From Eledone cirrhosa (lineage: Eukaryota), in assembly GCA_964016885.1 (NCBI GenBank), contig OZ024749.1, positions 6,386,001 to 6,450,000 of the forward strand: a DNA stretch of 64,000 nucleotides, written 5' to 3'. Positions 5,594 to 64,000 of the stretch are shown here, in pieces. Below the pieces are notes generated by a model. That model had not been told where the DNA came from and made no database searches. It saw only the letters and a list, made by a program, of their open reading frames with translations. Each line of letters opens with the position of its first letter. Position 1 is the stretch's first letter. The position numbers and the translations under genes are program-made.

Positions 5594-5766
5594 ACGCAGC
5601 GTAGCAAATGGAACACCAGCCGCTGTTTTGCTATAGTTTTTTTCACCATCACTTTCCTGCCTTTTACGCACACATACATTTACACAAACACACTCATACA
5701 CACACTCACACACAATGTGTGATGGACGGATGGCAGGAAGTCACACAAATTTATGTATAGATGGAT

Positions 5767-19972: not shown

Positions 19973-21579
19973 ACATGTATATCTGGTTTAGTATGGGTAC
20001 ACTGTATCACTTTGTGTCATATAAAGCAACTAAAAGGGTTGGTATCAAGAAGGGCATCTGGCTGTAAAACGTTGCTTCAAAATGTCCTGTCCAACGCAGG
20101 GCATTATGGGAAAGTGAATATAACAATGTTCATGATGATGATATATATACATAATTGTTTTTAGTAGGCAGAGTTGTTAGGACATGGATTAAATGCCCTT
20201 ATATCTTTTCTGTTTCACTGTGCTCTGTGTTCAAATGCTACAGATGTCAACTTTCCCTTATACCATCATCATCATCATCATCATTTTTACATCTGCTTTT
20301 CCATTCTTGCATGGGTTGGATGGGGCCTTCTCAGCACAGCATCTCTCCACTAAACTCGTTTCTTCATCAGCTCCTCAGCCAGTCATAGCGATTTGAGGTC
20401 TGCTCTCACAACCTCTGCCCAGGTTTTTTATTGGTTGTCCTCTATTGTGGCTTCCTTCCATTAGGATTTCCTGGCATTTCTTCACCCATCAGTGTCTCAA
20501 ACCAATGCAGTCTTTTCTCCTGCACACCATTTCAGATTCCCCTTAAACTCAGCTTCTCCATAGATCACCTAGATAGCAGAAGCTATCAACCACATCCATG
20601 GATCCTTCATTGAAGTTGATAAATAAAATAAAATAAATCAGCCTGTGCATTGGTACTTTACGCCCAGCTCACAGATTGCTTTTTCCTGTCATCATCTAAA
20701 CATCTTCAGGGCTCACAATAATCTATCCCCAGTTCCTTCTCATCATAATGTCATATTTCAGGAACTGTCTCCCCCCACCTGCTATGTCCTTCCCACAGAA
20801 TTGGTAAAGAGTTGGACAGGATTCTTTACAGTATCTGTTTTGTCCTTGTGCATTCTGAGTTCAAATCCTGCCTCCTGCTGCCAAATTCTAGGAGTTGCAA
20901 CTGGCAGAGAGTATCAGCAATGGAACAACCAATAGAAACGCAACATCCTTTATCTGATCTGCTGATTGGTTCCTTTAGTTTTTTTTTTCTTTTCTCTCCA
21001 AAGGGAAATTTCAATTAATAAAGAATTATTTGCATAAGTCATTCAGTGCCTAACCCTTCAACTTATTTACTGAACTACCATATCATTTATGGGGGAAGTT
21101 TAATTAGACTTAATCAACTCTATAGCTCAGCTTTTGACACTATAATCATCATTGCTGTATATAGCAGGACTTATAGCAGTACTTTGTCCCAGTAATAGTG
21201 GATTTATATTCTTTAAAATAACTTGATACTTGGAAATTACACAATGGTTTGATTGGTTTTCCTATCTTTGGAAACGGTAATAAAATTTTATTTCAATTGA
21301 TTTCACTCTATTGATTTCTAATATAGGTGCACAATTTCAGATATTTGATATTGGAGAGAGAAAATGAGATTGCCTGTCTAGGTTTTTCCCTTCTCAACAG
21401 CATTGATCATTTCAAGGGCATTAACAGATGCACTACAATTACTCTGCATCTTACAAACTCTCTAATATTCTTCTTTCATCTCTTGCTTCCATGTTGCTTT
21501 CATTTTGACCAGAATAGCCTCTGTTCCATTCAATTTAGCTATCAGTAAATTACATTTATCCCAGTTGTACCCAGGTACA

Positions 21580-24500
21580 CTCTCTGACATTTGGCCTCAG
21601 TACACTCCATGACATCTGGCTTCAATATAAACTGTGACATCTGACCTGAATACAGCCTGTGACATCTGGCCTCAGTACACACTGTGACATCTGGCCTCAG
21701 TACACACTGTGACATCTGGTCTCAGTATAGTCTGTGACATCTGGCGTCAGTACAGTCTGTGACTGCTGACCTCAGTACAGTCTGTGACTGCTAACCTCAG
21801 TACAGTCTGTGATATCTGGCCTCAGTATAGTCTGAGAAATCTGGCCTCAGTACACTGTGTGACATATGACCTCAGTACAGCATAACATCTGGCCTCTGAA
21901 CACACTGTGACATCTGGCCTCAGTACAGCCTGTGACATCTGCCCTCAGAACAGCCTGTGACATATGGCCTTAGTACAACCTGTGACATCTGGCCTCAGTA
22001 CACCATGTGACATCTGGCCTCTGTAAACCCTATGACATCTGACATCAGTACAACCTGTGACATCTGGCCTCAGTACAGTCTGTGACATCTGGCCTCTGCA
22101 CACCCTTTGACATCCAGCCTCTGCACACCCTGTGACATCTGGCGTCAGTACAGACTGTGACATCTGACCTCAGTACAGTCTGTGAAATCTGACCTCAGTA
22201 CAGTCTGTGACATCTAACCTCAGTACAGTCCGTGACATCTGACCTCAGTACAGTATGTGACATCTGACCTCAGTACAGTATGTGACTGCTGACCTCAGTA
22301 CAGTCTGTGACATCTGACCTCAGTACAGTCTGTGACATCTGACCTCAGTACAGTCTGTGACTGCTGACCTCAGTACAGTCTGTGACATCTGACCTCAGTA
22401 CAGTCTGTGACATCTGACCTCAGTACAGTCTGTGACATCTGACCTCAGTACAGTCTGTGACATCTGACCTCAGTACAGTATGTGACATCTGACCTCAGTA
22501 CAGTCTGTGACTGCTGACCTCAGTACAGTCTGTGACATCTGACCTCAGTACAGTCTGTGACATCTGACCTCAGTACAGTCTGTGACATCTGACCTCAGTA
22601 CAGTCTGTGACATCTGACCTCAGTACAGTCTGTGACTGCTGACCTCAGTACAGTCTGTGACTGCTGACCTCAGTACAGTCTGTGACATCTGACCTCAGTA
22701 CAGTCTGTGACATCTGACCTCAGTACAGTCTGTGACTGCTGACCTCAGTACAGTCTGTGACATCTGACCTCAGTACAGTCTGTGACATCTGACCTCAGTA
22801 CAGTCTGTGACATCTGACCTCAGTACAGTCTGTGACATCTGACCTCAGTACAGTCTGTGACATCTGACCTCAGTACAGTCTGTGACATCTGACCTCAGTA
22901 CAGTCTGTGACTGCTGACCTCAGTACAGTCTGTGACATCTGACCTCAGTACAGTCTGTGACTGCTGACCTCAGTACAGTCTGTGACTGCTGACCTCAGTA
23001 CAGTCTGTGACATCTGACCTCAGTACAGTCTGTGACATCTGACCTCAGTACAGTCTGTGACATCTGACCTCAGTACAGTCTGTGACATCTGACCTCAGTA
23101 CAGTCTGTGACTGCTGACCTCAGTACAGTCTGTGACATCTGACCTCAGTACAGTCTGTGACATCTGACCTCAGTACAGTCTGTGACTGCTGACCTCAGTA
23201 CAGTCTGTGACTGCTGACCTCAGTACAGTCTGTGACTGCTGACCTCAGTACAGTCTGTGACTGCTGACCTCAGTACAGTCTGTGACATCTGACCTCAGTA
23301 CAGTCTGTGACATCTGACCTCAGTACAGTCTGTGACATCTGACCTCAGTACAGTCTGTGACATCTGACCTCAGTACAGTCTGTGACTGCTGACCTCAGTA
23401 CAGTCTGTGACTGCTGACCTCAGTACAGTCTGTGACTGCTGACCTCAGTACAGTCTGTGACTGCTGACCTCAGTACAGTCTGTGACATCTGACCTCAGTA
23501 CAGTCTGTGACATCTGACCTCAGTACAGTCTGTGACATCTGACCTCAGTACAGTCTGTGACATCTGACCTCAGTACAGTCTGTGACATCTGACCTCAGTA
23601 CAGTCTGTGACATCTGACCTCAGTACAGTCTGTGCCATCTGACCTCAGTACAGTCTGTGACATCTGACCTCAGTACAGTCTGTGACATCTGACCTCAGTA
23701 CAGTCTGTGACATCTGACCTCAGTACAGACTGTGACATCTGACCTCAGTACAGTCTGTGACATCTGACCTCAGTACAGTCTGTGACTGCTGACCTCAGTA
23801 CAGTCTGTGACATCTGACCTCAGTACAGTCTGTGACATCTGACCTCAGTACAGACTGTGACATCTGACCTCAGTACAGTCTGTGACATCTGACCTCAGTA
23901 CAGTCTGTGACATCTGACCTCAGTACAGTCTGTGACATCTGACCTCAGTACAGTCTGTGACATCTGACCTCAGTACAGTCTGTGACATCTGACCTCAGTA
24001 CAGTCTGTGACATCTGACCTCAGTACAGTCTGTGACATCTGACCTCAGTACAGTCTGTGACATCTGACCTCAGTACAGACTGTGACATCTGACCTCAGTA
24101 CAGTCTGTGAAATCTGACCTCAGTACAGTCTGTGACATCTGACCTCAGTACAGTCTGTGACATCTAACCTCAGTACAGTCCGTGACATCTGACCTCAGTA
24201 CAGTCTGTGACATCTGACCTCAGTACAGTCTGTGACATCTGACCTCAGTACAGTCTGTGACTGCTGACCTCAGTACAGTCTGTGACATCTGACCTCAGTA
24301 CAGTCTGTGACATCTGACCTCAGTACAGTCTGTGAGATCTGACCTCAGTACAGTCTGTGACATCTGACCTCAGTACAGTCTGTGACATCTGACCTCAGTA
24401 CAGACTGTGACATCTGACCTCAGTACAGTCTGTGACATCTGACCTCAGTACAGTCTGTGACTGCTGACCTCAGTACAGTCTGTGACATCTGACCTCAGTA

Positions 24501-27500
24501 CAGTCTGTGACATCTGACCTCAGTACAGTATGTGACTGCTGACCTCAGTACAGTCTGTGACATCTGACCTCAGTACAGTCTGTGACATCTGACCTCAGTA
24601 CAGTATGTGACATCTGACCTCAGTACAGTATGTGACTGCTGACCTCAGTACAGTCTGTGAGATCTGACCTCAGTACAGTCTGTGACATCTGACCTCAGTA
24701 CAGTCTGTGACTGCTGACCTCAGTACAGTCTGTGACATCGGACCTCAGTACAGTCTGTGACTGCTGACCTCAGTACAGTCTGTGACATCTGACCTCAGTA
24801 CAGTCTGTGACATCTGACCTCAGTACAGTCTGTGACTGCTGACCTCAGTACAGTCTGTGACATCTGACCTCAGTACAGTCTGTGACTGCTGACCTCAGTA
24901 CAGTCTGTGACATCTGACCTCAGTACAGTCTGTGACTGCTGACCTCAGTACAGTCTGTGACATCTGACCTCAGTACAGTCTGTGACATCTGACCTCAGTA
25001 CAGTCTGTGACATCTGACCTCAGTACAGTCTGTGACTGCTGACCTCAGTACAGTCTGTGACATCTGACCTCAGTACAGTCTGTGACTGCTGACCTCAGTA
25101 CAGTCTGTGACATCTGACCTCAGTACAGTCTGTGACATCTGACCTCAGTACAGTCTGTGACATCTGACCTCAGTACAGTCTGTGACTGCTGACCTCAGTA
25201 CAGTCTGTGACATCTGACCTCAGTACAGTCTGTGACTGCTGACCTCAGTACAGTCTGTGACATCTGACCTCAGTACAGTCTGTGACTGCTGACCTCAGTA
25301 CAGTCTGTGACATCTGACCTCAGTACAGTCTGTGACATCTGACCTCAGTACAGTCTGTGACATCTGACCTCAGTACAGTCTGTGACTGCTGACCTCAGTA
25401 CAGTCTGTGACATCTGACCTCAGTACAGTCTGTGACATCTGACCTCAGTACAGTCTGTGACATCTGACCTCAGTACAGTCTGTGACATCTGACCTCAGTA
25501 CAGTCTGTGACATCTGACCTCAGTACAGTCTGTGACTGCTGACCTCAGTACAGTCTGTGACATCTGACCTCAGTACAGTCTGTGACTGCTGACCTCAGTA
25601 CAGTCTGTGACATCTGACCTCAGTACAGTCTGTGACTGCTGACCTCAGTACAGTCTGTGACATCTGACCTCAGTACAGTCTGTGACATCTGACCTCAGTA
25701 CAGTCTGTGACTGCTGACCTCAGTACAGTCTGTGACATCTGACCTCAGTACAGTCTGTGACTGCTGACCTCAGTACAGTCTGTGACATCTGACCTCAGTA
25801 CAGTCTGTGACTGCTGACCTCAGTACAGTCTGTGACATCTGACCTCAGTACAGTCTGTGACATCTGACCTCAGTACAGTCTGTGACATCTGACCTCAGTA
25901 CAGTCTGTGACATCTGACCTCAGTACAGTCTGTGACATCTGACCTCAGTACAGTCTGTGACATCTGACCTCAGTACAGTCTGTGACTGCTGACCTCAGTA
26001 CAGTCTGTGACATCTGACCTCAGTACAGTCTGTGACTGCTGACCTCAGTACAGTCTGTGACATCTGACCTCAGTACAGTCTGTGACTGCTGACCTCAGTA
26101 CAGTCTGTGACATCTGACCTCAGTACAGTCTGTGACATCTGACCTCAGTACAGTCTGTGACATCTGACCTCAGTACAGTCTGTGACATCTGACCTCAGTA
26201 CAGTCTGTGACATCTGACCTCAGTACAGTCTGTGACATCTGACCTCAGTACAGTCTGTGACTGCTGACCTCAGTACAGTCTGTGACATCTGACCTCAGTA
26301 CAGTCTGTGACTGCTGACCTCAGTACAGTCTGTGACATCTGACCTCAGTACAGTCTGTGACATCTGACCTCAGTACAGTCTGTGACATCTGACCTCAGTA
26401 CAGTCTGTGACATCTGACCTCAGTACAGTCTGTGACATCTGACCTCAGTACAGTCTGTGACTGCTGACCTCAGTACAGTCTGTGACATCTGACCTCAGTA
26501 CAGTCTGTGACATCTGACCTCAGTACAGTCTGTGACATCTGACCTCAGTACAGTCTGTGACATCTGACCTCAGTACAGTCTGTGACATCTGACCTCAGTA
26601 CAGTCTGTGACTGCTGACCTCAGTACAGTCTGTGACATCTGACCTCAGTACAGTCTGTGACATCTGACCTCAGTACAGTCCGTGACATCTGACCTCAGTA
26701 CAGTCTGTGACATCTGACCTCAGTACAGTCTGTGACTGCTGACCTCAGTACAGTCTGTGACATCTGACCTCAGTACAGTCTGTGACATCTGACCTCAGTA
26801 CAGTCCGTGACATCTGACCTCAGTACAGTCTGTGACATCTGACCTCAGTACAGTCTGTGACATCTGACCTCAGTACAGTCCGTGACATCTGACCTCAGTA
26901 CAGTCTGTGACATCTGACCTCAGTACAGTCTGTGACATCTGACCTCAGTACAGTCTGTGACATCTGACCTCAGTACAGTCTGTGACATCTGACCTCAGTA
27001 CAGTCTGTGACATCTGACCTCAGTACAGTCTGTGACTGCTGACCTCAGTACAGTCTGTGACATCTGACCTCAGTACAGTCTGTGACATCTGACCTCAGTA
27101 CAGTCCGTGACATCTGACCTCAGTACAGTCTGTGACATCTGACCTCAGTACAGTCTGTGACTGCTGACCTCAGTACAGTCTGTGACATCTGACCTCAGTA
27201 CAGTCTGTGACATCTGACCTCAGTACAGTCCGTGACATCTGACCTCAGTACAGTCTGTGACATCTGACCTCAGTACAGTCTGTGACATCTGACCTCAGTA
27301 CAGTCCGTGACATCTGACCTCAGTACAGTCTGTGACATCTGACCTCAGTACAGTCTGTGACTGCTGACCTCAGTACAGTCTGTGACATCTGACCTCAGTA
27401 CAGTCTGTGACATCTGACCTCAGTACAGTCCGTGACATCTGACCTCAGTACAGTCTGTGACATCTGACCTCAGTACAGTCTGTGACATCTGACCTCAGTA

Positions 27501-27596
27501 CAGTCTGTGACATCTGACCTCAGCACAGTCTGTGACATCTGACCTCAGTACAGTCTGTGACATCTGACCTCAGTACAGTCTGTGACTGCTGACCTC
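21580..27596. repeat. 25-bp satellite array (GACCTCAGTACAGTCTGTGA-CATCT/CTGCT), about 240 units
   Basis: Period 25; diverged units at the left edge, homogeneous after ~22150. Confidence 0.98.
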
Positions 27597-36400: not shown

Positions 36401-37598
36401 AGCAGGGACTAGAGAGAAAGGGCCTCAAAGTCAACATGACAAAGACTAAGGTCCTTATAAGTAGACGAGAAAACAGAACCCAGATCCCCTCAGGGAAATG
36501 GCCTTGCTCAGTATGTAGGAAAGGTGTAGGTAGGAACTCCATTCTTTGCCCCAAATGCAAACAATGGGTACACAAGAGATGTAGCGGGATCTCAGGAAGC
36601 TTAATTAAGAATGTAGGATTCACATGCAGCAGCTGTGCTGAAACAGCAAGCAAACAGCCACAGGAAACAAGTACCACCAATCTCTGGGAGGGCCCTGTAG
36701 AAACAGTAGACAGCTTCTGCTACCTAGGTGACCGAATTAGCAACGGAGGTGGGTGCTCAGAAAGTACAATAACTAGGGTAAGAACGGGATGGAAGAAGTT
36801 TAGGGAACTACTACCACTGCTAGCTGCAAAAGGCTTCTCCCTCAGAATGAAAGGCAGACTGTATGATGCGTGTATCCGAACAGCGATGTTGCATGGTAGT
36901 GAGACCTGGGCGCTGAAGGTGGAAGACTTACGTAGATTAGAGAGAAACGAAGCCTGCATGCTCCGATGGATGTGTAACAATAATATACGTGAACGACAAA
37001 GCATAAATGAATTGAGAGAGAGACTGAGCATAAGAGGAATCAAATGCTGCGTGCAGGAGAGGCGGTTACGCTGGTATGGACATGTGATGCGTATGAAGGA
37101 TGACAGCTGCATAAAAAGGTGCAGAGCACTAGAAGTTGATGGAAACCGCGGAGTGGGGAGACCCAAGATGACTTGGGATGAGGTGATAAAAGCCGACCTT
37201 ACCCAACTACACCTCTCAAAGTCAATGACACACGACCGTGACTTCTGGCGTCACGCAGTAATACAGGGTACCCGACCTCCCATGGGTACATGCTGAAGCA
37301 TATAAACGATATGCCCCCCCCCCCCACCGCAAGGTGGTCGTGGAGGTGCCACAGCAAAAAAGCACCCAGCCCACACTGTAAAGTGGACGTGTAGGCGCCA
37401 CGAAAAAGCACCCAGCACTCACTGTAAATGAGGTTGGTGTTAGGAAGGGCATCCAGCTGTAGAAATCAAGCCAGATCAGTTCCTGTATGAGCAAGGCATG
37501 GTCAGCCGACCAGACACTGCCCACAACAGGACAACCCGTCTAACCCATGCTAGCGTGGAAGAACGGACGTAAAACGGTGATGATGATGATGATGATGA
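36401..37598 (+). mobile_element. RTE LINE, second 5'-truncated copy, nearly identical to 10472-11673
   Basis: Only a few substitutions by eye; (TA)n flanks; (GAT)n tail. Confidence 0.95.
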
Positions 37599-50468: not shown

Positions 50469-50497
<29 letters not shown>

Positions 50498-50506
<9 letters not shown>

Positions 50507-50550
50507 GTGTGATGTTAGTATATATATATAATACAATGTAGTTTGCTTGA

Positions 50551-50590
<40 letters not shown>

Positions 50591-50634
50591 GTGTGATGTT
50601 AGTATATATATATAATACAATGTAGTTTGCTTGA

Positions 50635-50676
<42 letters not shown>

Positions 50677-50720
50677 GTGTGATGTTAGTATATATATATA
50701 ATACAATGTAGTTTGCTTGA

Positions 50721-50760
<40 letters not shown>

Positions 50761-50804
50761 GTGTGATGTTAGTATATATATATAATACAATGTAGTTTGC
50801 TTGA

Positions 50805-50835
<31 letters not shown>

Positions 50836-50895
50836 CATATGTGTGATGTTAGTATATATATATAATACAATGTAGTTTGCTTGAAGCATTGTATA
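50498..50895. repeat. ~85-bp minisatellite with embedded (TA)n, 5 copies, followed by a (TA)n tract to ~51310
   Basis: Repeated CATATGTGTGATGTTAG..ATACAATGTAGTTTGCTTGAAGCATTG. Confidence 0.88.
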
Positions 50896-50985
50896 TATAT
50901 ATATATATATATAATATATATATATATATATAATATATATATATATATAATATATATATATATATAATATATATATATAATATAT

Positions 50986-51054
<69 letters not shown>

Positions 51055-51055
51055 T

Positions 51056-51088
<33 letters not shown>

Positions 51089-51094
51089 ATATAT

Positions 51095-51126
<32 letters not shown>

Positions 51127-51132
51127 ATATAT

Positions 51133-51164
<32 letters not shown>

Positions 51165-51172
51165 ATATATAT

Positions 51173-51245
<73 letters not shown>

Positions 51246-51253
51246 ATATATAT

Positions 51254-51295
<42 letters not shown>

Positions 51296-51310
51296 CTATA
51301 TATATATATA

Positions 51311-51702
51311 GTTTTGCGAGGTTTTTGATATGAAATCGTGTGTTGAAACAAATATTGTTATACTTGGGGAGGGTCATATTTGTGTAATATTGCCAGAATT
51401 AATAACAGAAAGATGGCGTAGAAAATACAATGCAATGGGAGGAAACAATAGCACCACTGACGATGTTGCAGATGTGCAACGAAATTTTTTGATAAACTAT
51501 ATATATGTGTTTGTGTCTATATTGTATCTGTATTATTTTTGACCGTTGGTCAGTCAATGGCAACATTGAGAACCGAATAAATTAGATTACCGATATAAAA
51601 GACACAGAAGCGAAAAGCGAAAACCAACCAAACAGTGAGTGTGTTCTGTTATTAATTCTGGCAATATTACACAAATACGACCCTCCCCAAGTATAACAAT
51701 AT
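51311..51702 (+). mobile_element. Penelope-like element with an inverted repeat and a partial hammerhead; family of 57085-57610
   Basis: Arms ~51353-51410 and ~51644-51702; CTGACGA-T-GTTGCA-GATG-TGCAAC-GAAA at 51457-51484. Confidence 0.7.
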
Positions 51703-51719
51703 ATATATATATATATATA

Positions 51720-52373
51720 TAATATTGAAACAGATAGAAGTCTAAACAATGCAAAATGGACTGTAAGATAAGGGTAAGTTATATGGTAATCTTTGTTTTG
51801 TTGTTGTTTTATCTGTCCAATATTGACAAATGTAGAAACATCAAGCAACATAATACCGTTACTATTAAAGCCAGTGATAGAAATATGGGTAACTTAAGAA
51901 TTAAGGAAGCCTTGCTCATACGTACACTCAACCCACAAATAAATAATAGATTAGAACTCAGCACACAGTACTTGACATAAGAAGACACACCCACAGGCAC
52001 ACAAACTAAACATCTTATACAAAAAGAAAATTGATTTCACGAAATACTATATTGGCAATTGACGTCATTCACGTGGAATGTGAAGTAATCATCGAAAACA
52101 AATTTGCAAACGTCTTAGAAAAAATTTAAATTAAAATCAAAATTTAATCCTGAAGAGAGGAAATTGGGACATTATCCACTGAAAGTTCCTTAAACACTGA
52201 TGAAGGGACTTTTAGGTCCCGAAATATTGAACAGATAAAAGAACAAAAAAAAAACAAATAAAAAAAAAAACAAACAAACAAATAAAGATTACCAGGTAAC
52301 TTGATTTTACTTTTCGTTACCTTACCTTACAGTCCACTTTGCATTGTTTAGCCTTCTATCTCTTTCAACATTA
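51720..52373 (+). mobile_element. Penelope-like 3' fragment: GIY-YIG C-terminus, partial hammerhead, inverted terminal copy
   Basis: TIKASDRNMGNLRIKEALLIRTLNPQINN; CTGATGA-A-GGGAC-TTTTAG-GTCCC-GAAA at 52198-52224; 51724-51824 is an inverted copy of 52223-52372. Confidence 0.75.
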
Positions 52374-52505
52374 TATATATATATATATATGCATAATTAA
52401 TACTTTGTAGATAGCAGCTGTTTTCAGGTCATATAACTGTTATTGAAACACGTGTCAATAAATTCCTTTTACTGAACTGTATCCATTTAAATCCTTCTAT
52501 ATATA

Positions 52506-52536
<31 letters not shown>

Positions 52537-52848
52537 AATGTGGAGAGGAAGCACACGAGTTAGGATATATATGAAAACAGGGAGAAAGAGACGATTATGA
52601 AGAAGAAAAAAATTTTTGTTTTCCTTTTTTGTTTATCTCTCTCTTTTCTGGGTTAGAAAATGATTAAGACGAAATGTTTTACTTTGTGTGAAGTGTTAAG
52701 GTATTAGTTGATTTATTTATTATTTAACAATGGCATTTATTTATCTATTTATATATTTAATTATCACTTCTTAAACCTTGTTTGTATATAACATTATTCT
52801 TTCTGCACCTTCTGTTTAACATGTGCGACACCACACTAATACATTTCA

Positions 52849-52890
52849 CTATCATTTGATAATGCATAAAAATGCTGAAACCGGTAATAG
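52849..52890 (+). ncRNA. Minimal hammerhead, U3-A8 variant, inside a 39-bp inverted repeat (52726-52764 / 52894-52932)
   Basis: TTGATAA-TGCAT-AAAA-ATGCT-GAAA-C-CG-G-TA; weak stem I. Confidence 0.5.
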
Positions 52891-52966
52891 ACAATAATTA
52901 AATATATAAATAGATAAATAAATGCCATTGTTTCTCTCTGTTTTCACATATATATATATGTATATA

Positions 52967-53905
52967 TCACCGAGTTTATATTCATAGAGATCTGGGACTT
53001 GTCTATTTCTTCTCACTTTCCGTTGCTTAAACCATTTTGTTTGTTACCCTAACGTCCCCTTTATTTACGTGTCCCAACGACTTTTTTTAGCCGTTGTTCG
53101 CACCAAACTGAGGCATATGGCCCTTCAAGCGATGAAATGCCTGGGACGGTTGGAGGGTCACTGATGAAGGACTTACTTTTTCATATGCACCACCATTTGC
53201 AACGCGCAGCCATCATTATTATCATATTTACACATAATTTTTCTTCTGCTGCCAACCGTCTGTTTCGTTCTTTGTACCTTTACCCTTTCTCGTTATTTGT
53301 ACCTTTTACCCTTTCTAGCAGTCTCTCTCTCTGTTAGCCTCCTCCTCAACTTTCACTCACTCATTCTCTGTCACTACCTCCCCTCCTCCTCTTTCCTCCT
53401 CCTCCTTCAAGTTTGACCTGTGTGTAATTCTTTTCTCGCGCGTTCCTGGTCAAGCTGGTATAGAATTTTTTTCTCTCTTTCGTCTGTGACTTCACAAAAC
53501 TTATGTTTACCGAATTCGTAGACCAGACCCCTTCTTCTTCTTCTTCTTCTTCCTTTTCTCCCCCCCCCCGTCAGACCTGTGCGAAATTCCTTCCTTGCTC
53601 ACATTTCAACCAGGTTTGATGGTCTTTTTCTCTTGTTCACGATTTCACCGAGTTTATATTCATAGAGATCTGGGACTTGTCTATTTCTTCTCACTTTCCG
53701 TTGCTTAAACCATTTTGTTTGTTACCCTAACGTCCCCTTTATTTACGTGTCCCAACGACTTTTTTTAGCCGTTGTTCGCACCAACCTGAGGCATATGGCC
53801 CTTAAAGCGATGAAATGCCTGGGACGGTTGGAGGGTCACTGATGAAGGACTTACTTTTTCATATGCACCACCATTTTCAACGTGCAGCCATCATTATTAT
53901 CATAT
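52967..53905 (+). mobile_element. Element with 261-bp direct terminal repeats (period 678), pLTR/retrozyme-like
   Basis: 52967-53227 repeated at 53645-53905; each contains CTGATGAAGG; (TA)n on both flanks. Confidence 0.7.
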
Positions 53906-53924
53906 ATATATATATATATATATA

Positions 53925-54260
53925 TCATCATCATCATTTTACGTCCACTTTTCCCTGCTTGCAAGGGTGGCACGGGAACTGATTCTGGCCTGATTTCTAC
54001 AGCTGGATGCCCTTCCTAACACCAACCTCATTTACAGTGAGTGCTGGGTGCTTTTTTGCCGTGGCACCTCCACGACCACTTTGCAGTGGAATGATAGGGA
54101 CCCCAGTCCCTATCATCTCATTTCTACAGCTGAGTAAACTGGAGCAATGTGAAATAAAGTGTCTTGCTCAAGGAAACAACACATCACCCGGACTGAGAAT
54201 TGAACTCACAACCTTTCGATTGCAAGGCCAATGTTCTAACCACTAAGCCATGTGCCTCCA
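53925..54260 (-). mobile_element. SINE family A
   Basis: Full-length copy. Confidence 0.9.
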
Positions 54261-54279
54261 TATATATATATATATACAT

Positions 54280-55140
54280 AGTGAAAGAGTGAAGAATAAT
54301 ATGGTTGGCTGTACAAAAAAGGTTTTATTTACAGTATTAATTGTTTCATTGATCAGGTGAGTCTAAAGGCCGCTGCTCACTCAAAATTGCACCACTCGAC
54401 CTTAAATACAGTGAGTGTCTCTGATCAAATCATCAGAATACTGGAAGGTGTAGCACATGGCACTAGTATTTATAGATACATCGGATAATCAAGGGAATGA
54501 AAACAATAACACCAATAATAAAAGATAATAAAATAAAGTATTAAAAAATAAAAATGTTAAAAAAGTAAAAAAAACATGGTTACTGATAATAGTAGTAGTG
54601 GTGGTGGTAGTTGAAGTTATAATGGTGAGTAAGTGGATGTTTGAAATAGTGATGATGGTAATGATAACAATAACATGAGAAGAAACACAGTTTATGGTAG
54701 CCGAAATGTAGTGTATTGAGTTCAGGGATTAGGCGAAATAAAAATGCAAAAAGTACAAACAAATATCAGAGGATTTAAAATAAAAAATAAAAAGTAAGCG
54801 AGAAAGAGAGTAAAGAATAAGGATTCAAGGATAAGACATAAAGGATAGGATTAAGGACCGGAGGGGTGGTGGGGAACAGTAAATAGATAAATAGAGAATA
54901 AAAAGGGAAAGGGCAGTGATGATATATGGGTGGTTAAGGTCTGGGAGATTGATTGTTTTATCTTAATGGACCGTGATCTAACTAGAAAGAGAAAGAAAGG
55001 TTGATTTATTGATCGGTTGGTCTGTTGACAGCTAATAACAGTGGAGTGGTGTGAAGTTAGGACATTTAAATCTGGGAGGTTCTGACTGAATACTGAGATT
55101 GGTGGATCGAATCATGCCAGTCGTGGTTTGAAGTTGGAGA
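54280..55140 (-). mobile_element. Penelope-like 3' remnant with a hammerhead at 54332-54443
   Basis: CAGTATT-CTGATGA-T-TTGATCAG..CTGATCAA-T-GAAACAATT-AATACTG (cleavage triplet apparently deleted); upstream degenerate ..SI..IK..PDLN. Confidence 0.6.
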
Positions 55141-55159
55141 ATATATATATATATATATA

Positions 55160-55354
55160 TCATCATCATCATCATTTTACGTCCACTTTTCCCTGCTTGC
55201 AAGGGTGGGACGGGAACTGATTCTGGGAACTGATTCTACAGCTGAGTAAACTGGAGCAATGTGAAATAAAGTGTCTTGCTCAAGGACACAACACATCACC
55301 CGGTCTGAGAATTGAACTCACAAACTCTCGATTGCAAGGCCAATGCTCTAACCA
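55160..55354 (-). mobile_element. SINE family A, internally deleted
   Basis: Tail joined directly to the core. Confidence 0.85.
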
Positions 55355-55557
55355 CGAGAAAGAGAAAAAAAGGGGGGATAGGTGATACATATAGTTATTT
55401 GCCAAGTAGCGTATGCTAAAGGTGCTCGATACTAGTGCCGGCAGTATTAAATATTCGAAGTGTTAATATTTAGTGGGCTAGAGAGTTAGCAGAGCGTAAG
55501 CACGTGGGAAAGTAAAAAATCGGAGAATAGACCGTTAAAACATGTTTATTTAAAACA

Positions 55558-55597
55558 GCACCTACGTACGTTTCGCCCAGTTGGGCTTCTCAAGGGC
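55558..55597 (-). ncRNA. Minimal hammerhead, U3-A8 variant
   Basis: GCCC-TTGAGAA-GCCCAACTGGGC-GAAA-C-GTAC-G-TA-GGTGC; palindromic stem III. Confidence 0.7.
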
Positions 55598-55723
55598 ATA
55601 AATAATCACAAGTGTTCCTTATATTGCTCGGAAAGAGTTTTTGGGGTTAAATATATATATATATATATATAAGTTATAAATATATAAGTTATAAGAATCA
55701 AAGTTCTGTTCAAATCATTTATA

Positions 55724-55770
55724 TGCCTACAATTGTTTCCTCCAAACCGAGGTTTGGATTCTTCGGAGCA
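55724..55770 (-). ncRNA. Minimal hammerhead with a U4C core change
   Basis: TGCT-CCGAAGA-A-TCCAAACC-TC-GGTTTGGA-G-GAAA-C-AATT-G-TA-GGCA. Confidence 0.6.
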
Positions 55771-55925
55771 ATTTATTAATGGATGATCACATATATGACC
55801 TCCTTTTCAACCAAAGAGACATACAGATACACATGCCAATATTATTGCTTGGTGGGTCGACATCCATTATAACATTTAGCGTGGCAGTATACATTTAAAG
55901 ATTACATTCATATCAAATACCTTAA

Positions 55926-55964
<39 letters not shown>

Positions 55965-56113
55965 CATATATAAGCAAACGGGATATTCAATTTGTTGCTA
56001 ATTCAACAAATATAAATGTTTATAACTGATTCAGAGCACTCGACAGGTTTTCTGGAGTATAATATTCAATGATATTAAATAAATAAAACACTAAATTTAT
56101 AAAACATACTTTG

Positions 56114-56175
56114 TATTTTATCTGATGAAAGCGTACCAAAGTTTTTGGTACCCTTGAAATATATATAATAGAATA
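56114..56175 (+). ncRNA. Minimal type I hammerhead ribozyme in element 55970-56240
   Basis: TATTTTAT-CTGATGA-AAGCGTACCAAA-GTT-TTTGGTACCCTT-GAAA-T-ATAT-A-TA-ATAGAATA; predicted cleavage after 56167. Confidence 0.8.
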
Positions 56176-56237
56176 AATATGGTTTTATAAATATATATAT
56201 ATAGAGAGTTTCCATTTATTTAATATCATTGAATACA

Positions 56238-56291
<54 letters not shown>

Positions 56292-56294
<3 letters not shown>

Positions 56295-56500
56295 TCATCA
56301 TCAGCAACATCAGCATCATCATCATCACCATGTTATGTCCATTCTTCCAAACTAGCATGGGTTAGACGGGTTGTCCTGTTGTGGGCAATGCCAGGTCGGG
56401 CGACATTGTCTTGCTCATACGGGAACTGATTCTGGCTTGATTTCTTCAGCTGGATGCCCTTCCCAACAGTGAATACTGGGTGCTGTTTACTGTGGCGCCT
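56292..56500 (-). mobile_element. RTE LINE 3' UTR fragment
   Basis: Reverse complement of the 11470-11673-type sequence. Confidence 0.8.
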
Positions 56501-56519
56501 ACATATATATATATATATA

Positions 56520-56811
56520 TCATCATCATCATCATTTTACGTCTGCTTTTCCCTGCTTGCAAGGGTGGGATGGGAACTGGTTCTGGCTTGATTTCTACAG
56601 CTGGATGCCCTTCCTAACACCAACCTCATTTACAGTGAGTGCTGGGTGCTTTTTTGCCGTGGCACGACCACTTTGCAGTGGAATGATAGGGACCCCAGTC
56701 CCTATCATCTCATTTCTACAGCTGATCACCCGGTCTGATCACCCGGTCTGAGAATTGAACATCCTTTCGATTGCAAGGCCAATGCTCTAACCACTAAGCC
56801 ATGTGCCTCCA
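56520..56811 (-). mobile_element. SINE family A with small deletions
   Basis: Same consensus. Confidence 0.85.
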
Positions 56812-56924
56812 TATATATATATATATATATATTGAGGGTTACCGGCCAAAGTGGAAGATGCTAGATGGTCGGTCGTCCTCGGGTCTATGATTTTCAGCCC
56901 CATGGATTTCATCTGCTACATTCA

Positions 56925-57003
56925 TTTATTATATTTCGAATACCTGATGATATCACCGGATTCATACGGAACCCGGTCATTGAAATGATCATAGTATAAT
57001 AAA
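56925..57003 (+). ncRNA. Minimal type I hammerhead in element 56832-57052
   Basis: ATAC-CTGATGA-TATCACCGGATTC..GAACCCGGTCATT-GAAA-T-GATC-A-TA-GTAT; predicted cleavage after 56993. Confidence 0.68.
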
Positions 57004-57084
57004 CCTTTCAAGGATTTACACAAGTCCAGCCTCCTGTTATTTTATTATAATTATATATATATATATATAGATATGTATATATAT

Positions 57085-57604
57085 ATATTTCGTTTCTGAA
57101 TTTGTTTAGCAAGATTCTTTATCTGAAATCGTGTGTTGAAACCGATATTGTTATACTTTGGGAGGGTCATGTTGCCAATAAGAAACACACGCACCAGTTG
57201 CTTTCACTTCAATTTATTATATATTTATAAATTTATAAATTTACAAATCTACAAACTTATAAATTTCTGGTTGGTTGGTTGGTTCCACAACCACAAAAAT
57301 GTGGCGCATGCGCAAACTGAGCACACAACACACACACAGAAACAAAATGGCGTAGGACAGAAGAAAGGAAAGGCACAGAAACAAAGAAAGGAATCCCCAG
57401 TCACTGAAGAGGTCACAGAGTGTGTGACGAAAGGACTATGACTATATATAAACAACTATCTGGTTGTGGAACCAACCAACCAACCAGAAATTTATAAGTT
57501 TGTAGATTTGTAAATTTATAAATTTATAAATATATAATAAATTGAAGTGAAAGCTACTGGTGCGTGTGTTTCTTATTGGCAACATGACCCTCCCAAAGTA
57601 TAAC

Positions 57605-57610
<6 letters not shown>
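57085..57610 (+). mobile_element. Penelope-like element: 149-bp inverted repeats (57145-57293 / 57461-57609) enclosing a hammerhead
   Basis: Arms differ at one position by eye; (TA)n flanks. Confidence 0.85.
57399..57443 (+). ncRNA. Minimal type I hammerhead ribozyme
   Basis: AGTCA-CTGAAGA-G-GTCACA-GAGTG-TGTGAC-GAAA-G-GA-C-TA-TGACT; predicted cleavage after 57438. Confidence 0.8.
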
Positions 57611-57635
<25 letters not shown>

Positions 57636-57875
57636 GCAAAAGTTTTATTTAAAATTGTTGGGTTACAACAAGTAAATATTTTATAACTGATATAAAGCAC
57701 TCGACAAGTTTTTGGAGTAGATATACGATATTAAACAAATGGAAACTATATTTATAAAACCATATTTATTTCATTATACATGAAATATGGTATATAATAT
57801 GCATATGGTATCCCTGAAATATGTATAATGAAATAAATATGGTTTTATAAATATAGTTTCCATTTGTTTAATATC

Positions 57876-57882
<7 letters not shown>
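57636..57882 (+). mobile_element. Second copy of the 55970 family; 61-bp perfect inverted repeat with a hammerhead 3' half
   Basis: Arms 57721-57781 / 57821-57881; GGTATCCCT-GAAA-T-ATGT-A-TA. Confidence 0.75.
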
Positions 57883-57910
<28 letters not shown>

Positions 57911-58162
57911 AATAAATTAACGGAGGCATAGGCCGTCGTTATTCCCTGTAAATAATGTGCTCAAAGGGGAAGAGATCCTGAGCCCTTTAAAATATAATAT
58001 GTTGAGAAGGTAACACACCAGAGAGAGATATATAGTGCGTTATCAATAATACAGGGAAAAAACCACCAGTGTATGGAATCTATAACCTATGAAAGGCAGA
58101 CTATAGACACGATAATTAAAAATATAAATTAAAGCGTAAATAAATACCTCTATAACTATATA

Positions 58163-58242
58163 ACACACGTACAAATCCAAAGATATGTTTCACCAGAAAT
58201 TTGTTGAAAGAAATGGGTTAGCCTCGGTTCATCAGCGTGTGT
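58163..58242 (-). ncRNA. Type I hammerhead ribozyme with a full stem III, in element 57907-58398
   Basis: ACACACG-CTGATGA-ACCGAGG..TTTCTGGT-GAAA-CATATC-TTTG-GATTTG-TA-CGTGTGT; GUA cleavage triplet. Confidence 0.82.
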
Positions 58243-58426
58243 AAGGCCATACATTTCAGACAACACTAAGAGAATTTTACAATTGACTGTCCAGCTACAC
58301 GTGGGAGAGAGAAGTCACAGCGTGTTTAAGGGCAGTGATCCAGTGGCCTCTGAGAGACGAACTGCTAGAAAGGGCAGCCCAAAGCCACTCAGAGAAGTGT
58401 ATATATATATATATATGATGATGATG

Positions 58427-61454: not shown

Positions 61455-64000
61455 CAATGCGTGGTCAATGTATGGTCAATGTATGGTCAGTGTATGGTCA
61501 ATGTGTGGTCCATGTATGGTCAATGTATGGTCAATGTGTGGTCCTAGTATGGTCAGTGGATGGTCAATGTGTGGTCCTAGTATGGTCAGTGTATGGTCAA
61601 TGTGTGGCCCTAGTATGGTCAGTGTGTGGTCAATATGTGATCCCAGTGCGGTCAGTGTATGGTCAATATGTGGTCTTTGTATGGTCAGTGTATGGTCAAT
61701 TTGTAGTCCATGTATGGTCAGTATATAGCCACTATGTAGTCACTATGTGGTCAGTGTATTGTCACGGTGTAGTCACTATGTGGTCAGTATATAGCCACTG
61801 TGTAGCCACTATGTGGTCAGTGTATCGTCACTGTGTAGCCACTGTATGGTCAGTGTATGGTCAATTGGTGGTATATGTATGGTCAGTGTATGGTCACTGT
61901 GTGGTCAGTGTATGGTCACTGTGTAGCCACTGTGTGGTCAGTGTATCGTCACTGTGTAGCCACTGTGTGGTCAGTGTATGGTCACTGTGTAGCCACTGTG
62001 TGGTATGTGTATCGTCACTGTGTAGCCAATGTGTGGTCAGTATATAGCCACTGTGTAGTCACTATGTGGTCAGTGTATGGTCACTGTGTAGCCACTGTGT
62101 GGTCAGTGTATGGTCACTGTGTAGCCAGTGTGGTCAGTGTATCGTCACTGTGTAGCCACTGTGTGGTCAGTGTATGGTCACTGTGTAGCCACTGTGTGGT
62201 CAGTGTATGGTCACTGTGTAGCCACTGTGTGGTCAGTGTATGGTCACTGTGTAGCCACTGTGTGGTCAGTGTATCGTCACTGTGTAGCCACTGTGTGGTC
62301 AGTGTATGGTCACTGTGTAGCCACTGTGTGGTCAGTGTATGGTCACTGTGTAGCCACTGTGTGGTCAGTGTATCGTCACTGTGTAGCCACTGTGTGGTCA
62401 GTGTATGGTCACTGTGTAGCCACTGTGTGGTCAGTGTATCGTCACTGTGTAGCCACTGTGTGGTCAGTGTATGGTCACTGTGTAGCCACTGTGTGGTCAG
62501 TGTATGGTCACTGTGTAGCCACTGTGTGGTCAGTGTATCGTCACTGTGTAGCCACTGTGTGGTCAGTGTATGGTCACTGTGTAGCCACTGTGTGGTCAGT
62601 GTATCGTCACTGTGTAGCCACTGTGTGGTCAGTGTATGGTCACTGTGTAGCCACTGTGTGGTCAGTGTATCGTCACTGTGTAGCCATTGTGTGGTCAGTG
62701 TATCGTCACTGTGTAGCCACTGTGTGGTCAGTGTATGGTCACTGTGTAGCCACTGTGTGGTCAGTGTATCGTCACTGTAGCCACTGTGTGGTCAGTGTAT
62801 CGTCACTGTGTAGCCACTGTGTGGTCAGTGTATCGTCACTGTGTAGCCACTGTGTGGTCAGTGTATGGTCACTGTGTAGCCACTGTGTGGTCAGTGTATC
62901 GTCACTGTGTAGCCACTGTGTGGTCAGTGTATGGTCACTGTGTAGCCACTGTGTGGTCAGTGTATGGTCACTGTGTAGCCACTGTGTGGTCAGTGTATCG
63001 TCACTGTGTGGTCAGTGTATGGTCACTGTGTAGCCACTGTGTGGTCAGTGTATCGTCACTGTGTAGCCACTGTGTGGTCAGTGTATGGTCACTGTGTAGC
63101 CACTGTGTGGTCAGTGTATGGTCACGGTGTAGCCACTGTGTGGTCAGTGTATCGTCACTGTGTAGCCACTGTGTGGTCAGTGTATCGTCACTGTGTAGCC
63201 ACTGTGTGGTCAGTGTATCGTCACTGTGTAGCCACTGTGTGGTCAGTGTATCGTCACTGTAGCCACTGTGTGGTCAGTATATCGTCACTGTGTAGCCACT
63301 GTGTGGTCAGTGTATGGTCACTGTGTAGCCACTGTGTGGTCAGTGTATGGTCACTGTGTAGCCACTGTGTGGTCAGTGTATCGTCACTGTGTAGCCACTG
63401 TGTGGTCAGTGTATCGTCACTGTGTAGCCACTGTGTGGTCAGTGTATCGTCACTGTGTAGCCACTGTGTGGTCAGTGTATCGTCACTGTAGCCACTGTGT
63501 GGTCAGTATATCGTCACTGTGTAGCCACTGTGTGGTCAGTGTATGGTCACTGTGTAGCCAATGTGTGGTCAGTGTATGGTCACTGTGTAGCCACTGTGTG
63601 GTCAGTGTATGGTCACTGTGTAGCCACTGTGTGGTCAGTGTATCGTCACTGTAGCCACTGTGTGGTCAGTATATCGTCACTGTGTAGCCACTGTGTGGTC
63701 AGTGTATCGTCACTGTGTAGCCACTGTGTGGTCAGTGTATCGTCACTGTGTAGCCACTGTGTGGTCAGTGTATCGTCACTGTGTAGCCACTGTGTGGTCA
63801 GTGTATGGTCACTGTGTAGTCACTATGTGGTCAGTGTATGGTCACTGTGTAGCCACTGTGTGGTCAGTGTATGGTCACTGTGTAGCCACTGTGTGGTCAG
63901 TGTATCGTCACTGTGTAGCCACTGTGTGGTCAGTGTATGGTCACTGTGTAGCCACTGTGTGGTCAGTGTATGGTCACTGTGTAGCCACTGTGTGGTCAGT
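61455..64000. repeat. 33-bp satellite (3 x 11-bp subunits), truncated by window end
   Basis: CACTGTGTAGC-CACTGTGTGGT-CAGTGTATSGT. Confidence 0.96.

What the first reader, a model, noticed from the sequence alone, without database searches (positions are those of the whole stretch)
51311..58398. Hammerhead-ribozyme hotspot: at least ten motifs from unrelated short elements in 7 kb
Seen: complete or partial type I hammerhead motifs (stem I-CUGANGA-stem II-GAAA-stem III-UH-stem I) at 51457(+), 52198(+), 52856(+), 54332(-), 55558(-), 55724(-), 56114(+), 56940(+), 57399(+), 57816(+, half) and 58163(-). The stems have different sequences yet keep pairing. Each element is ~200-900 bp and almost all are bounded by (TA)n. 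Known: Penelope-like elements and metazoan non-LTR retrozymes carry minimal type I hammerheads whose short, palindromic stem III works as a dimer; two neighbouring remnants here retain GIY-YIG-like C-termini. Inference: a diverse, (TA)n-targeting ribozyme-retroelement system piles up at one site, and these cephalopod families may be undescribed.
Basis: partly seen in the sequence, partly recalled or inferred. Interest (0 to 1): 0.85.

Follow-up and report, generated by a model that had tools for sequence, protein, structure and literature searches.

The report
Rearranged hammerhead ribozyme among Penelope remnants
This 7-kb stretch is a pile of short leftovers of several mobile-element families sitting in TA repeats, each with a hammerhead ribozyme motif; most are an ordinary feature of Penelope-like retrotransposons, but one non-coding family with thousands of copies holds the motif's parts in a shuffled order that we found reported only from environmental RNA, and it is predicted (untested) to be a self-cutting RNA with a new fold variant.

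Summary
The motifs are real: 9 pass a descriptor in 7.1 kb (shuffles 0.06), and all 11 claimed sites match hammerheads of repeat families, though four copies are damaged. They are the 3' ends of Penelope-like elements (PLEs). Three families link to RT + GIY-YIG ORFs, and 51457 and 57404 are relatives, not unrelated. The 'hotspot' is about 9-fold local enrichment in a genome with roughly 250,000-540,000 such motifs; 3 of 54 sampled loci hold 6-8. That part is known biology.

It holds every hammerhead core base in the order site-GAAA-CUGANGA (type SGC), which our searches found reported only from metatranscriptomes. Stems I and III covary across subfamilies, a blind test held in 12 of 13 copies, and among subfamilies the core varies only at N7 and H17. 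A second family with different stems has the same layout. In both, stem II appears to be supplied by an upstream strand, with two helices inserted after A9, a layout not found in our searches. Cleavage is untested.

The parts
50470..51310 (.). (TA)-rich array on which the cluster abuts (likely target tract)
51311..51698 (+). PLE family F1 end: inverted arm with tail 51311-51410, direct copy with type I hammerhead (core 51457; stem III damaged in this copy)
   Evidence: (8326 matches, tandem period about 4147)
51722..52371 (+). PLE family F2 end: inverted arm, GIY-YIG C-terminus 51822-51980, minimal hammerhead (core 52197; stem I damaged in this copy)
52565..52947 (+). family F3 with inverted arms; U3-A8 core variant at 52856, palindromic stem III, weak stem I
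52960..53914 (+). non-coding tandem family F3b, 1.4 units of a 678-nt unit, PLE-type ends
53071..53172 (+). rearranged (SGC-order) hammerhead motif, copy 1; predicted cut 53117/53118; one mismatch in the interaction helix
53749..53850 (+). rearranged hammerhead motif, copy 2: IIa 53749-52/53847-50; hairpin 53753-74; stem II 53776-79/53807-10; interaction helix 53781-86/53826-31; stem III 53789-94/53815-20; predicted cut 53795/53796; stem I 53796-802/53832-38; GAAA 53812-15; CUGAUGA 53839-45
53926..54259 (-). tRNA-like SINE, no hammerhead found; further pieces 55161-55355, 56293-56502, 56521-56810
   Evidence: 98 hits in 24 of 54 background loci
54277..55140 (-). family F4; type I hammerhead with long (about 85 nt) stem II, core 54436, 3-nt loss in stem III
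55356..55650 (-). family F5; U3-A8 core at 55593, 8-nt palindromic stem III
55672..55928 (-). family F6; U4C core at 55766, palindromic stem III
55961..56240 (+). family F7; complete type I hammerhead, core 56122
56833..57051 (+). family F8; complete type I hammerhead, core 56944
57089..57607 (+). PLE family F9 end: inverted arm ending at +222, direct copy ending at +162; hammerhead core 57404, predicted cut 57438/57439
   Evidence: (3125 matches)
57628..57876 (+). second F7-family element; hammerhead lacking its 5' core at the inversion junction
57908..58399 (-). family F10; type I hammerhead with a full hairpin stem III, core 58235

Best explanation
The region is a stack of about a dozen short insertions from at least ten repeat families, three of them shown to be ends of coding Penelope-like retrotransposons, and one non-coding family carries a hammerhead in rearranged order that likely self-cleaves (untested). 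Shown: copies end at two fixed points 69-273 nt past the predicted cut site, followed by (TA)n; in F9 these points are at ATAT inside the ORF start, and head-to-head pairs use one of each. Inferred: reverse transcription starts at those points on a longer-than-unit or circular RNA, so even very short copies keep the ribozyme. Each insertion leaves (TA)n on both sides, which would renew the target and let families pile up. Most type I motifs would work as dimers through palindromic stem III. In family F3b the order is cut site, GAAA, CUGANGA (type SGC). Stems I and III cross as a pseudoknot. Stem II is likely formed with an upstream strand, the strand after CUGANGA closes an extra helix around a hairpin, and a sixth helix ties the far ends of stems I and II. 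Two such motifs 678 nt apart would release a monomer able to circularise and be copied by a PLE protein in trans.
For: PLE link: F9 tandem period 4083 with RT and C-terminal GIY-YIG-type ORF and CxxC linker; F1 period about 4147; F2 RT above Pfam cut-off. Ends: F9 27 at +162, 23 at +222, 3 at +203/+207, and 19 of 19 divergent pairs mix a short and a long end; F3b 13 at +69, 7 at +119. Motif count tracks (TA)n tracts, rho 0.51, n=54. Type I covariation: 12 of 18 pairs change on both sides. SGC motif: stem I paired in 100% and stem III in 98.8% of cells, 6 of 34 pairs change on both sides. Blind test: of 16 copies picked by the stem I 3' strand, 13 reach the 5' strand and 12 of 13 are fully complementary; H17 is A or C, N7 is U or C. 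Second family F12 has the same six helices with other sequences, a GUC triplet and G10.1-C11.1. Controls with the same core pattern: 0 of 116 and 0 of 38 form stems I and III; 4 hits against 0.17 in shuffles. Family also present in two other organisms' runs.
Against: No cleavage, RNA end or circle was observed. Stem II, IIa and the interaction helix show no two-sided change within F3b; their support is position plus the F3b-F12 comparison, two possibly homologous families. F3b has U-U or C-U at 10.1-11.1. PMC10085705 states that no known alignment has more than 1-2 nt between CUGAnGA and its stems, so a helical insert is unprecedented there. RNAfold's nested optimum forms only part of the model. 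Subfamily changes are inherited, so few independent events. No coding partner was found for F3b (0 of 52 hits with an ORF upstream), nor for F3-F8 and F10. Rows of alignment A2 were chosen by the descriptor. PMC11167929 found the ribozyme dispensable for insertion in vitro and saw no RNA-seq reads ending at the cut site.
Confidence: 0.72

Rival explanations
1. F3b is a plain type-SGC hammerhead with a minimal, non-canonical stem II made by the strand after CUGANGA; the upstream pairings are incidental or regulatory.
For: F12 can form 2 G-C pairs directly; the bases next to both boxes are conserved between families; stem II and IIa do not covary within F3b.
Against: Direct pairing is only -0.6 and -0.5 kcal/mol against -5.9 and -11.5 for the upstream partner; both upstream strands flank the hairpin at matching places in both families.
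Confidence: 0.2
2. The rearranged motif works only across tandem units, on a circle or between two RNAs (site and CUGANGA from one unit, GAAA from the next), as a multimer-sensing switch like dimeric type I motifs.
For: The family forms arrays with periods of 630-756 nt (56, 94); three mutually crossing helices are demanding; dimer dependence is the rule for PLE hammerheads (PMC4209133).
Against: Linkers of 8-12 nt are kept in both families, which fits an in-cis fold (inference); known SGC RNAs cleave as monomers (PMC10085705).
Confidence: 0.2
3. The F3b structure is a protein-binding or priming signal next to the reverse-transcription start sites, and its hammerhead bases are an inactive relic or a coincidence.
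For: It lies 20-70 nt upstream of the ends; PLE protein binds near the start sites and needs no cleavage in vitro (PMC11167929).
Against: All core bases are fixed across subfamilies while only the two free positions vary, H17 never G; controls 0 of 154.
Confidence: 0.12
4. The locus is a special, selected ribozyme hotspot with a host function.
For: 9 motifs and 8 families exceed all 54 background loci (max 8 and 4); 60 kb of flanks hold 2 (89).
Against: 4 of 11 copies are damaged; SINEs without ribozymes pile up in the same tracts; clusters of 6-8 occur in 3 of 54 loci; the region was picked after the fact.
Confidence: 0.05

Closest known systems
C-terminal EN+ Penelope-like elements with a Zn-finger linker (Neptune/Nematis type; PMC8557442)
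   Same: RT then GIY-YIG, Cys linker, pLTR hammerhead, partial tandems, inverted 5'-truncated copy, tail at one end, (TA)n targets
   Different: Clade not resolved by a tree; tail is 60 nt in F9 rather than 30-40; very high motif load
PLE minimal type I hammerheads (PMC4209133)
   Same: 1-nt insert before stem II, palindromic stem III, U3-A8 variant, many families per genome
   Different: Estimated 250,000-540,000 motifs here against about 9,000 in Xenopus (descriptors differ); U4C family; F4 with an 85-nt stem II
Poseidon PAc of Anolis (PMC11167929)
   Same: Two start sites inside the ORF start, downstream of the hammerhead, define the tail
   Different: Here both ends fall at AT-type microhomology to the target; that paper reports initiation at a non-homologous site
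Metazoan non-LTR retrozymes (PMC7229834; 10.64898/2026.07.22.740005)
   Same: Non-coding tandem units of a few hundred nt with one hammerhead per unit; PLE link
   Different: F3b and F12 carry an SGC-order motif, not type I
Type-SGC hammerheads, HRIMA-1 (PMC10085705)
   Same: Block order site-GAAA-CUGANGA, short linker from stem I to stem II, a helix joining stems I and II
   Different: Those come from metatranscriptomes, none from genomes of known organisms, and their stem II follows CUGANGA directly; here it is a high-copy animal repeat and stem II appears to come from an upstream strand

Membership tests
EN+ PLE (F1, F2, F9) | ORF with RT followed by GIY-YIG endonuclease | tested here: met
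   Open frames up to 731 aa in broken copies; RVT_1 above cut-off for F2, below for F1 and F9; GIY-YIG below cut-off for F2; motifs read by eye
EN+ PLE (F1, F2, F9) | pLTR or partial tandem, inverted copy, one-sided tail | tested here: met
   (tandems shown for F1 and F9)
EN+ PLE (F1, F2, F9) | hammerhead in the pLTR | tested here: met
   ORF match within 900 nt upstream for 37 of 62, 13 of 23, 7 of 14 hits
Neptune or Nematis clade | CX2-5CxxC linker before the endonuclease | tested here: inconclusive
   Present in F1 and F9, reduced in F2; no tree against reference clades was made
EN+ PLE (F3-F8, F10) | coding partner | tested here: inconclusive
   None in the few copies held
Type I hammerhead | core boxes and three stems in CGS order with covariation | tested here: met
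   four window copies damaged
Type I hammerhead | self-cleavage (monomer or dimer) | not testable with these tools
   No raw RNA reads were offered
Type-SGC hammerhead (F3b, F12) | all core bases in order site, GAAA, CUGANGA | tested here: met
Type-SGC hammerhead (F3b, F12) | stems I and III abutting the core, covarying | tested here: met
Type-SGC hammerhead (F3b, F12) | stem II formed by the strand directly after CUGANGA | tested here: not met
   0-2 pairs, about -0.5 kcal/mol; an upstream strand pairs instead. So it works like SGC but is not filed as a plain member
Type-SGC hammerhead (F3b, F12) | helix joining stems I and II | tested here: inconclusive
   6 bp and 5 bp candidates in the two families; no two-sided change within F3b
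Type-SGC hammerhead (F3b, F12) | cleavage at the predicted site | not testable with these tools
   bench assay needed
Non-LTR retrozyme (F3b) | non-coding tandem unit with a hammerhead in each unit | tested here: met
Non-LTR retrozyme (F3b) | type I hammerhead | tested here: not met
   None inside units of 6 of 7 loci scanned; the one hit lay outside the unit (57, 75)
Non-LTR retrozyme (F3b) | expressed circular RNA | not testable with these tools
   Only contigs; the one RNA run gave 0 records

The most novel reading that the evidence does not exclude
Octopod genomes carry thousands of copies of retrozymes whose active ribozyme is a new hammerhead architecture: non-circularly permuted (SGC order), with stem II donated by an upstream strand and a two-helix module inserted between A9 and position 10.1. 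It would be the first non-circularly permuted hammerhead in an animal genome, evolved inside Penelope-mobilised elements.
Probability: 0.55. Interest if true: 0.87.

Novelty: new variant of a known kind. Interest (0 to 1): 0.72.

Why it matters
Type-SGC hammerheads were reported from metatranscriptomes with no known host genome (PMC10085705). A high-copy animal retroelement with that order, and with helices inserted where only 1-2 nt were thought allowed, would widen the fold's rules and explain why standard descriptors and Rfam miss some PLE-associated ribozymes. It is a roughly 105-nt RNA that can be tested in one transcription assay. The genome also offers dozens of PLE hammerhead families and young copies with two exact ends, useful for the open question of what the ribozyme does in PLE transposition.

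Tried and rejected
Rfam scans showed no hammerhead (150 of 161 rows shown, 15 rows, 132 rows). The first strict descriptor found only 2 motifs in the region because it barred the 1-nt insert. A DNA search of the own genome with 57303-57460 returned nothing although the family has over 3,000 copies (10 against 34). Type II reading of F3b (cut just before the inner hairpin) was rejected because position 16.1 varies. HDV-, pistol- and C/D-box-like readings were considered from recalled consensus features and did not fit. The idea that 5' truncation points map to the cut site was not supported: F9 5' ends are scattered. A second GIY-YIG remnant was not found. The test for lower mutation at F12 core columns was inconclusive (0.33 against 0.78 per column, 21 copies). 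Run X1 (share 0.06) gave 0 records on F3b and X5 is of unknown kind, so there is no expression evidence. Counting exact palindromes in stem III is not independent of the descriptor. ARAGORN found no tRNA. Earlier-findings look-ups were empty.
Full report
OBSERVATION. The window is G000:C9:6386001-6450000 of a 3.0-Gb assembly. A type I descriptor (core boxes, 0-1 nt insert, stems I-III) found 4 complete and 2 partial motifs in 51311-58398; 300 local shuffles gave a mean of 0.06. Adding the U4C core and a rearranged order gave 9 (5 complete, 2 partial, 2 rearranged); 200 shuffles gave a mean of 0.06, max 2. Hand checks and alignments to other copies tie all 11 claimed sites to family hammerheads. 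Four are complete (56122, 56944, 57404, 58235), three have family-wide variant cores (52856, 55593, 55766) and four are damaged copies (51457, 52197, 54436, 57816). In 12 descriptor-selected relatives of the 56122 motif, 12 of 18 pairs change on both sides and 97% of cells pair. Rfam does not see them.

IS IT A HOTSPOT? I fetched 54 ten-kb loci at round positions on 19 contigs. They hold 79 motifs against 6 in shuffles, 0.146 per kb; the region has 1.27 per kb. Three of 54 loci reach 6-8 motifs in their best 7-kb window; none has more than 4 families by a crude key, against 8 here. Complete type I motifs extrapolate to about 390,000 per genome (bootstrap 250,000-540,000, about 4% false). Counts follow (TA)n tracts (rho 0.51, p 8e-5). 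tRNA-like SINEs without ribozymes sit in the same tracts. The site is a local high in a genome full of these motifs.

WHAT THE TYPE I ELEMENTS ARE. The 45-nt motif at 57404 has 3,125 exact matches. [quoted passage not shown] The 51457 motif has 8,326 matches and a period of about 4,147 nt; its ORF is 66% identical to the first. The 52197 element keeps a GIY-YIG C-terminus (151 matches listed from 5,900 candidates; RT and GIY-YIG in longer copies). F9 copies end at +162 (27) or +222 (23) from the predicted cut, 3 at +203/+207, always before (TA)n and inside the ORF start; 19 of 19 head-to-head pairs combine a short and a long end. This is the inverted-copy-plus-tail anatomy with (TA)n preference of PMC8557442 and the two internal start sites of PMC11167929. 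No coding partner was seen for the other seven type I elements.

THE MISSED ELEMENT. 52960-53914 is 1.4 units of a 678-nt non-coding repeat. Two disjoint patterns give 5,454 and 1,689 matches, with arrays of up to 9 listed units. Copies end at +69 (13) or +119 (7) before (TA)n. No type I motif lies in the unit. Instead: stem III 5' strand 53789-94, H17 at 53795, stem I 53796-802, GAAA 53812-15, stem III 3' strand 53815-20, stem I 3' strand 53832-38, CUGAUGA 53839-45. This is the order site-GAAA-CUGANGA, type SGC of PMC10085705, whose authors found it only in metatranscriptomes and none in genomes of known organisms. In 16 copies stem I pairs in 100% of cells with 3 two-sided changes and stem III in 98.8% with 1 (inherited changes count many times). 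As a blind test I picked 16 copies by a third allele of the stem I 3' strand: 3 were truncated, and 12 of the other 13 had the complementary 5' strand; H17 was A or C and N7 U or C, the two free core positions. Contigs of two other organisms carry the family.

SECOND FAMILY AND STEM II. The descriptor also found F12 (L175; 204 exact 35-mer matches, 40 of 1,306 candidates scored), with different stems and a GUC triplet; 13 of 21 BLAST-chosen copies keep an intact core with stem I of at least 5 and stem III of at least 4 pairs by the scan's table or (12 pass; 15 have those stems). Controls matching the same core pattern formed these stems in 0 of 116 and 0 of 38 cases; unbiased loci gave 4 hits against 0.17 shuffled. 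In neither family does the strand after CUGANGA pair well with the strand before GAAA (-0.6, -0.5 kcal/mol). Each has an upstream module, strand-hairpin-strand, whose second strand pairs with the pre-GAAA strand (-5.9, -11.5) and whose first pairs with the post-CUGANGA strand (-6.0, -5.8); a further helix (-10.2, -8.9) joins the linkers leading to stems I and II. Inference: stem II comes from upstream, and two helices are inserted between A9 and 10.1. These three helices show no two-sided change within F3b, so this part is weaker than the SGC order itself.

MECHANISM. Shown: anatomy, ends, copy numbers, pairings. Inferred: PLE protein nicks (TA)n and primes at two AT-ending sites downstream of the ribozyme on a longer-than-unit or circular RNA; truncated cDNAs join head to head; the renewed (TA)n flanks draw further insertions; ribozymes cut multimers to monomers. 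For F3b, cuts at 53117/53118 and 53795/53796 would free a 678-nt monomer. Against: PMC11167929 found the ribozyme protein-assisted and not needed for insertion in vitro. Odds: cluster as PLE debris 0.9; SGC-order motif real and conserved 0.85; active 0.65; upstream stem II 0.6.

LITERATURE SEEN. PMC10085705 parts 1-5 of 8 and a term search of its supplement; PMC4209133 parts 1-2 of 4; PMC11167929 parts 1-2 of 4; 10.64898/2026.07.22.740005 parts 1-2 of 5, supplements closed; passages of PMC8557442, PMC7229834, PMC13282606 (PLE families annotated in O. vulgaris, no mention of ribozymes), PMC8967140 and PMC13725137. Lunse 2017 and Weinberg 2015 were not held; anything about them is recalled. Searches behind 'not found in print': 'type-SGC' (1 paper), 'hammerhead' + 'non-circular permutation' (8 papers, 6 listed), 'hammerhead ribozyme' + 'octopus', extra-stem terms. 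The library lacks most subscription journals, and Dfam and Repbase were not available.

VERDICT. The finding as written is known biology at unusual density, worth about 0.35. The rearranged motif inside it is a new variant of a known kind, well supported by sequence and untested at the bench; overall interest 0.72.

Noticed in passing
L175 2245-2355 (G000:C1 about 36.393 Mb): Family F12: non-coding unit of about 750-820 nt with the same SGC-order motif, GUC triplet; the cleanest test candidate
   Followed up: yes
54 background loci (L007-L020, L051-L090): About 0.13 complete type I motifs per kb, some 30 different stem II types; far denser than the published counts for coral, mussel, Xenopus or axolotl that I read (descriptors differ)
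   Followed up: partly
window 40988(-), 41117(+), 43573(+), about 47620 and 8700: Further hammerhead motifs or decayed copies in the window outside the finding
   Followed up: partly
L011 6165-7877: 311-nt tandem unit with a type I hammerhead, arrays on both strands: a classical non-LTR retrozyme candidate; other periods of 466-592 nt in L019, L053/L069, L064, L152
   Followed up: no
window 55766(-) and copies in L082, L088, L094, L102, L020: Family with a fixed U4C change in the core box
   Followed up: partly
window 52856, 54436, 56944, 53811: U-U or similar mismatch at position 10.1-11.1 recurs in unrelated families
   Followed up: no
L121-L123, L145: F1 and F9 ORFs (about 1,200 aa across frameshifts) contain a long Asn/His/Thr-rich low-complexity insert before the RT
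   Followed up: no
L017 8016/8056; L085 2436/2462: Head-to-head pairs whose inversion point lies at the hammerhead, giving overlapping motifs on both strands
   Followed up: no
window 36403-37296: 297-aa LINE-like ORF fragment with a PHD-finger Pfam hit (RTE-like label recalled, not tested)
   Followed up: no
window 1-5594, 21575-27596, 61462-64000: Long satellite arrays of 16, 25 and 33 nt
   Followed up: no
window 52391-52497: 107-nt TA-bounded piece with no match in the loci held
   Followed up: no
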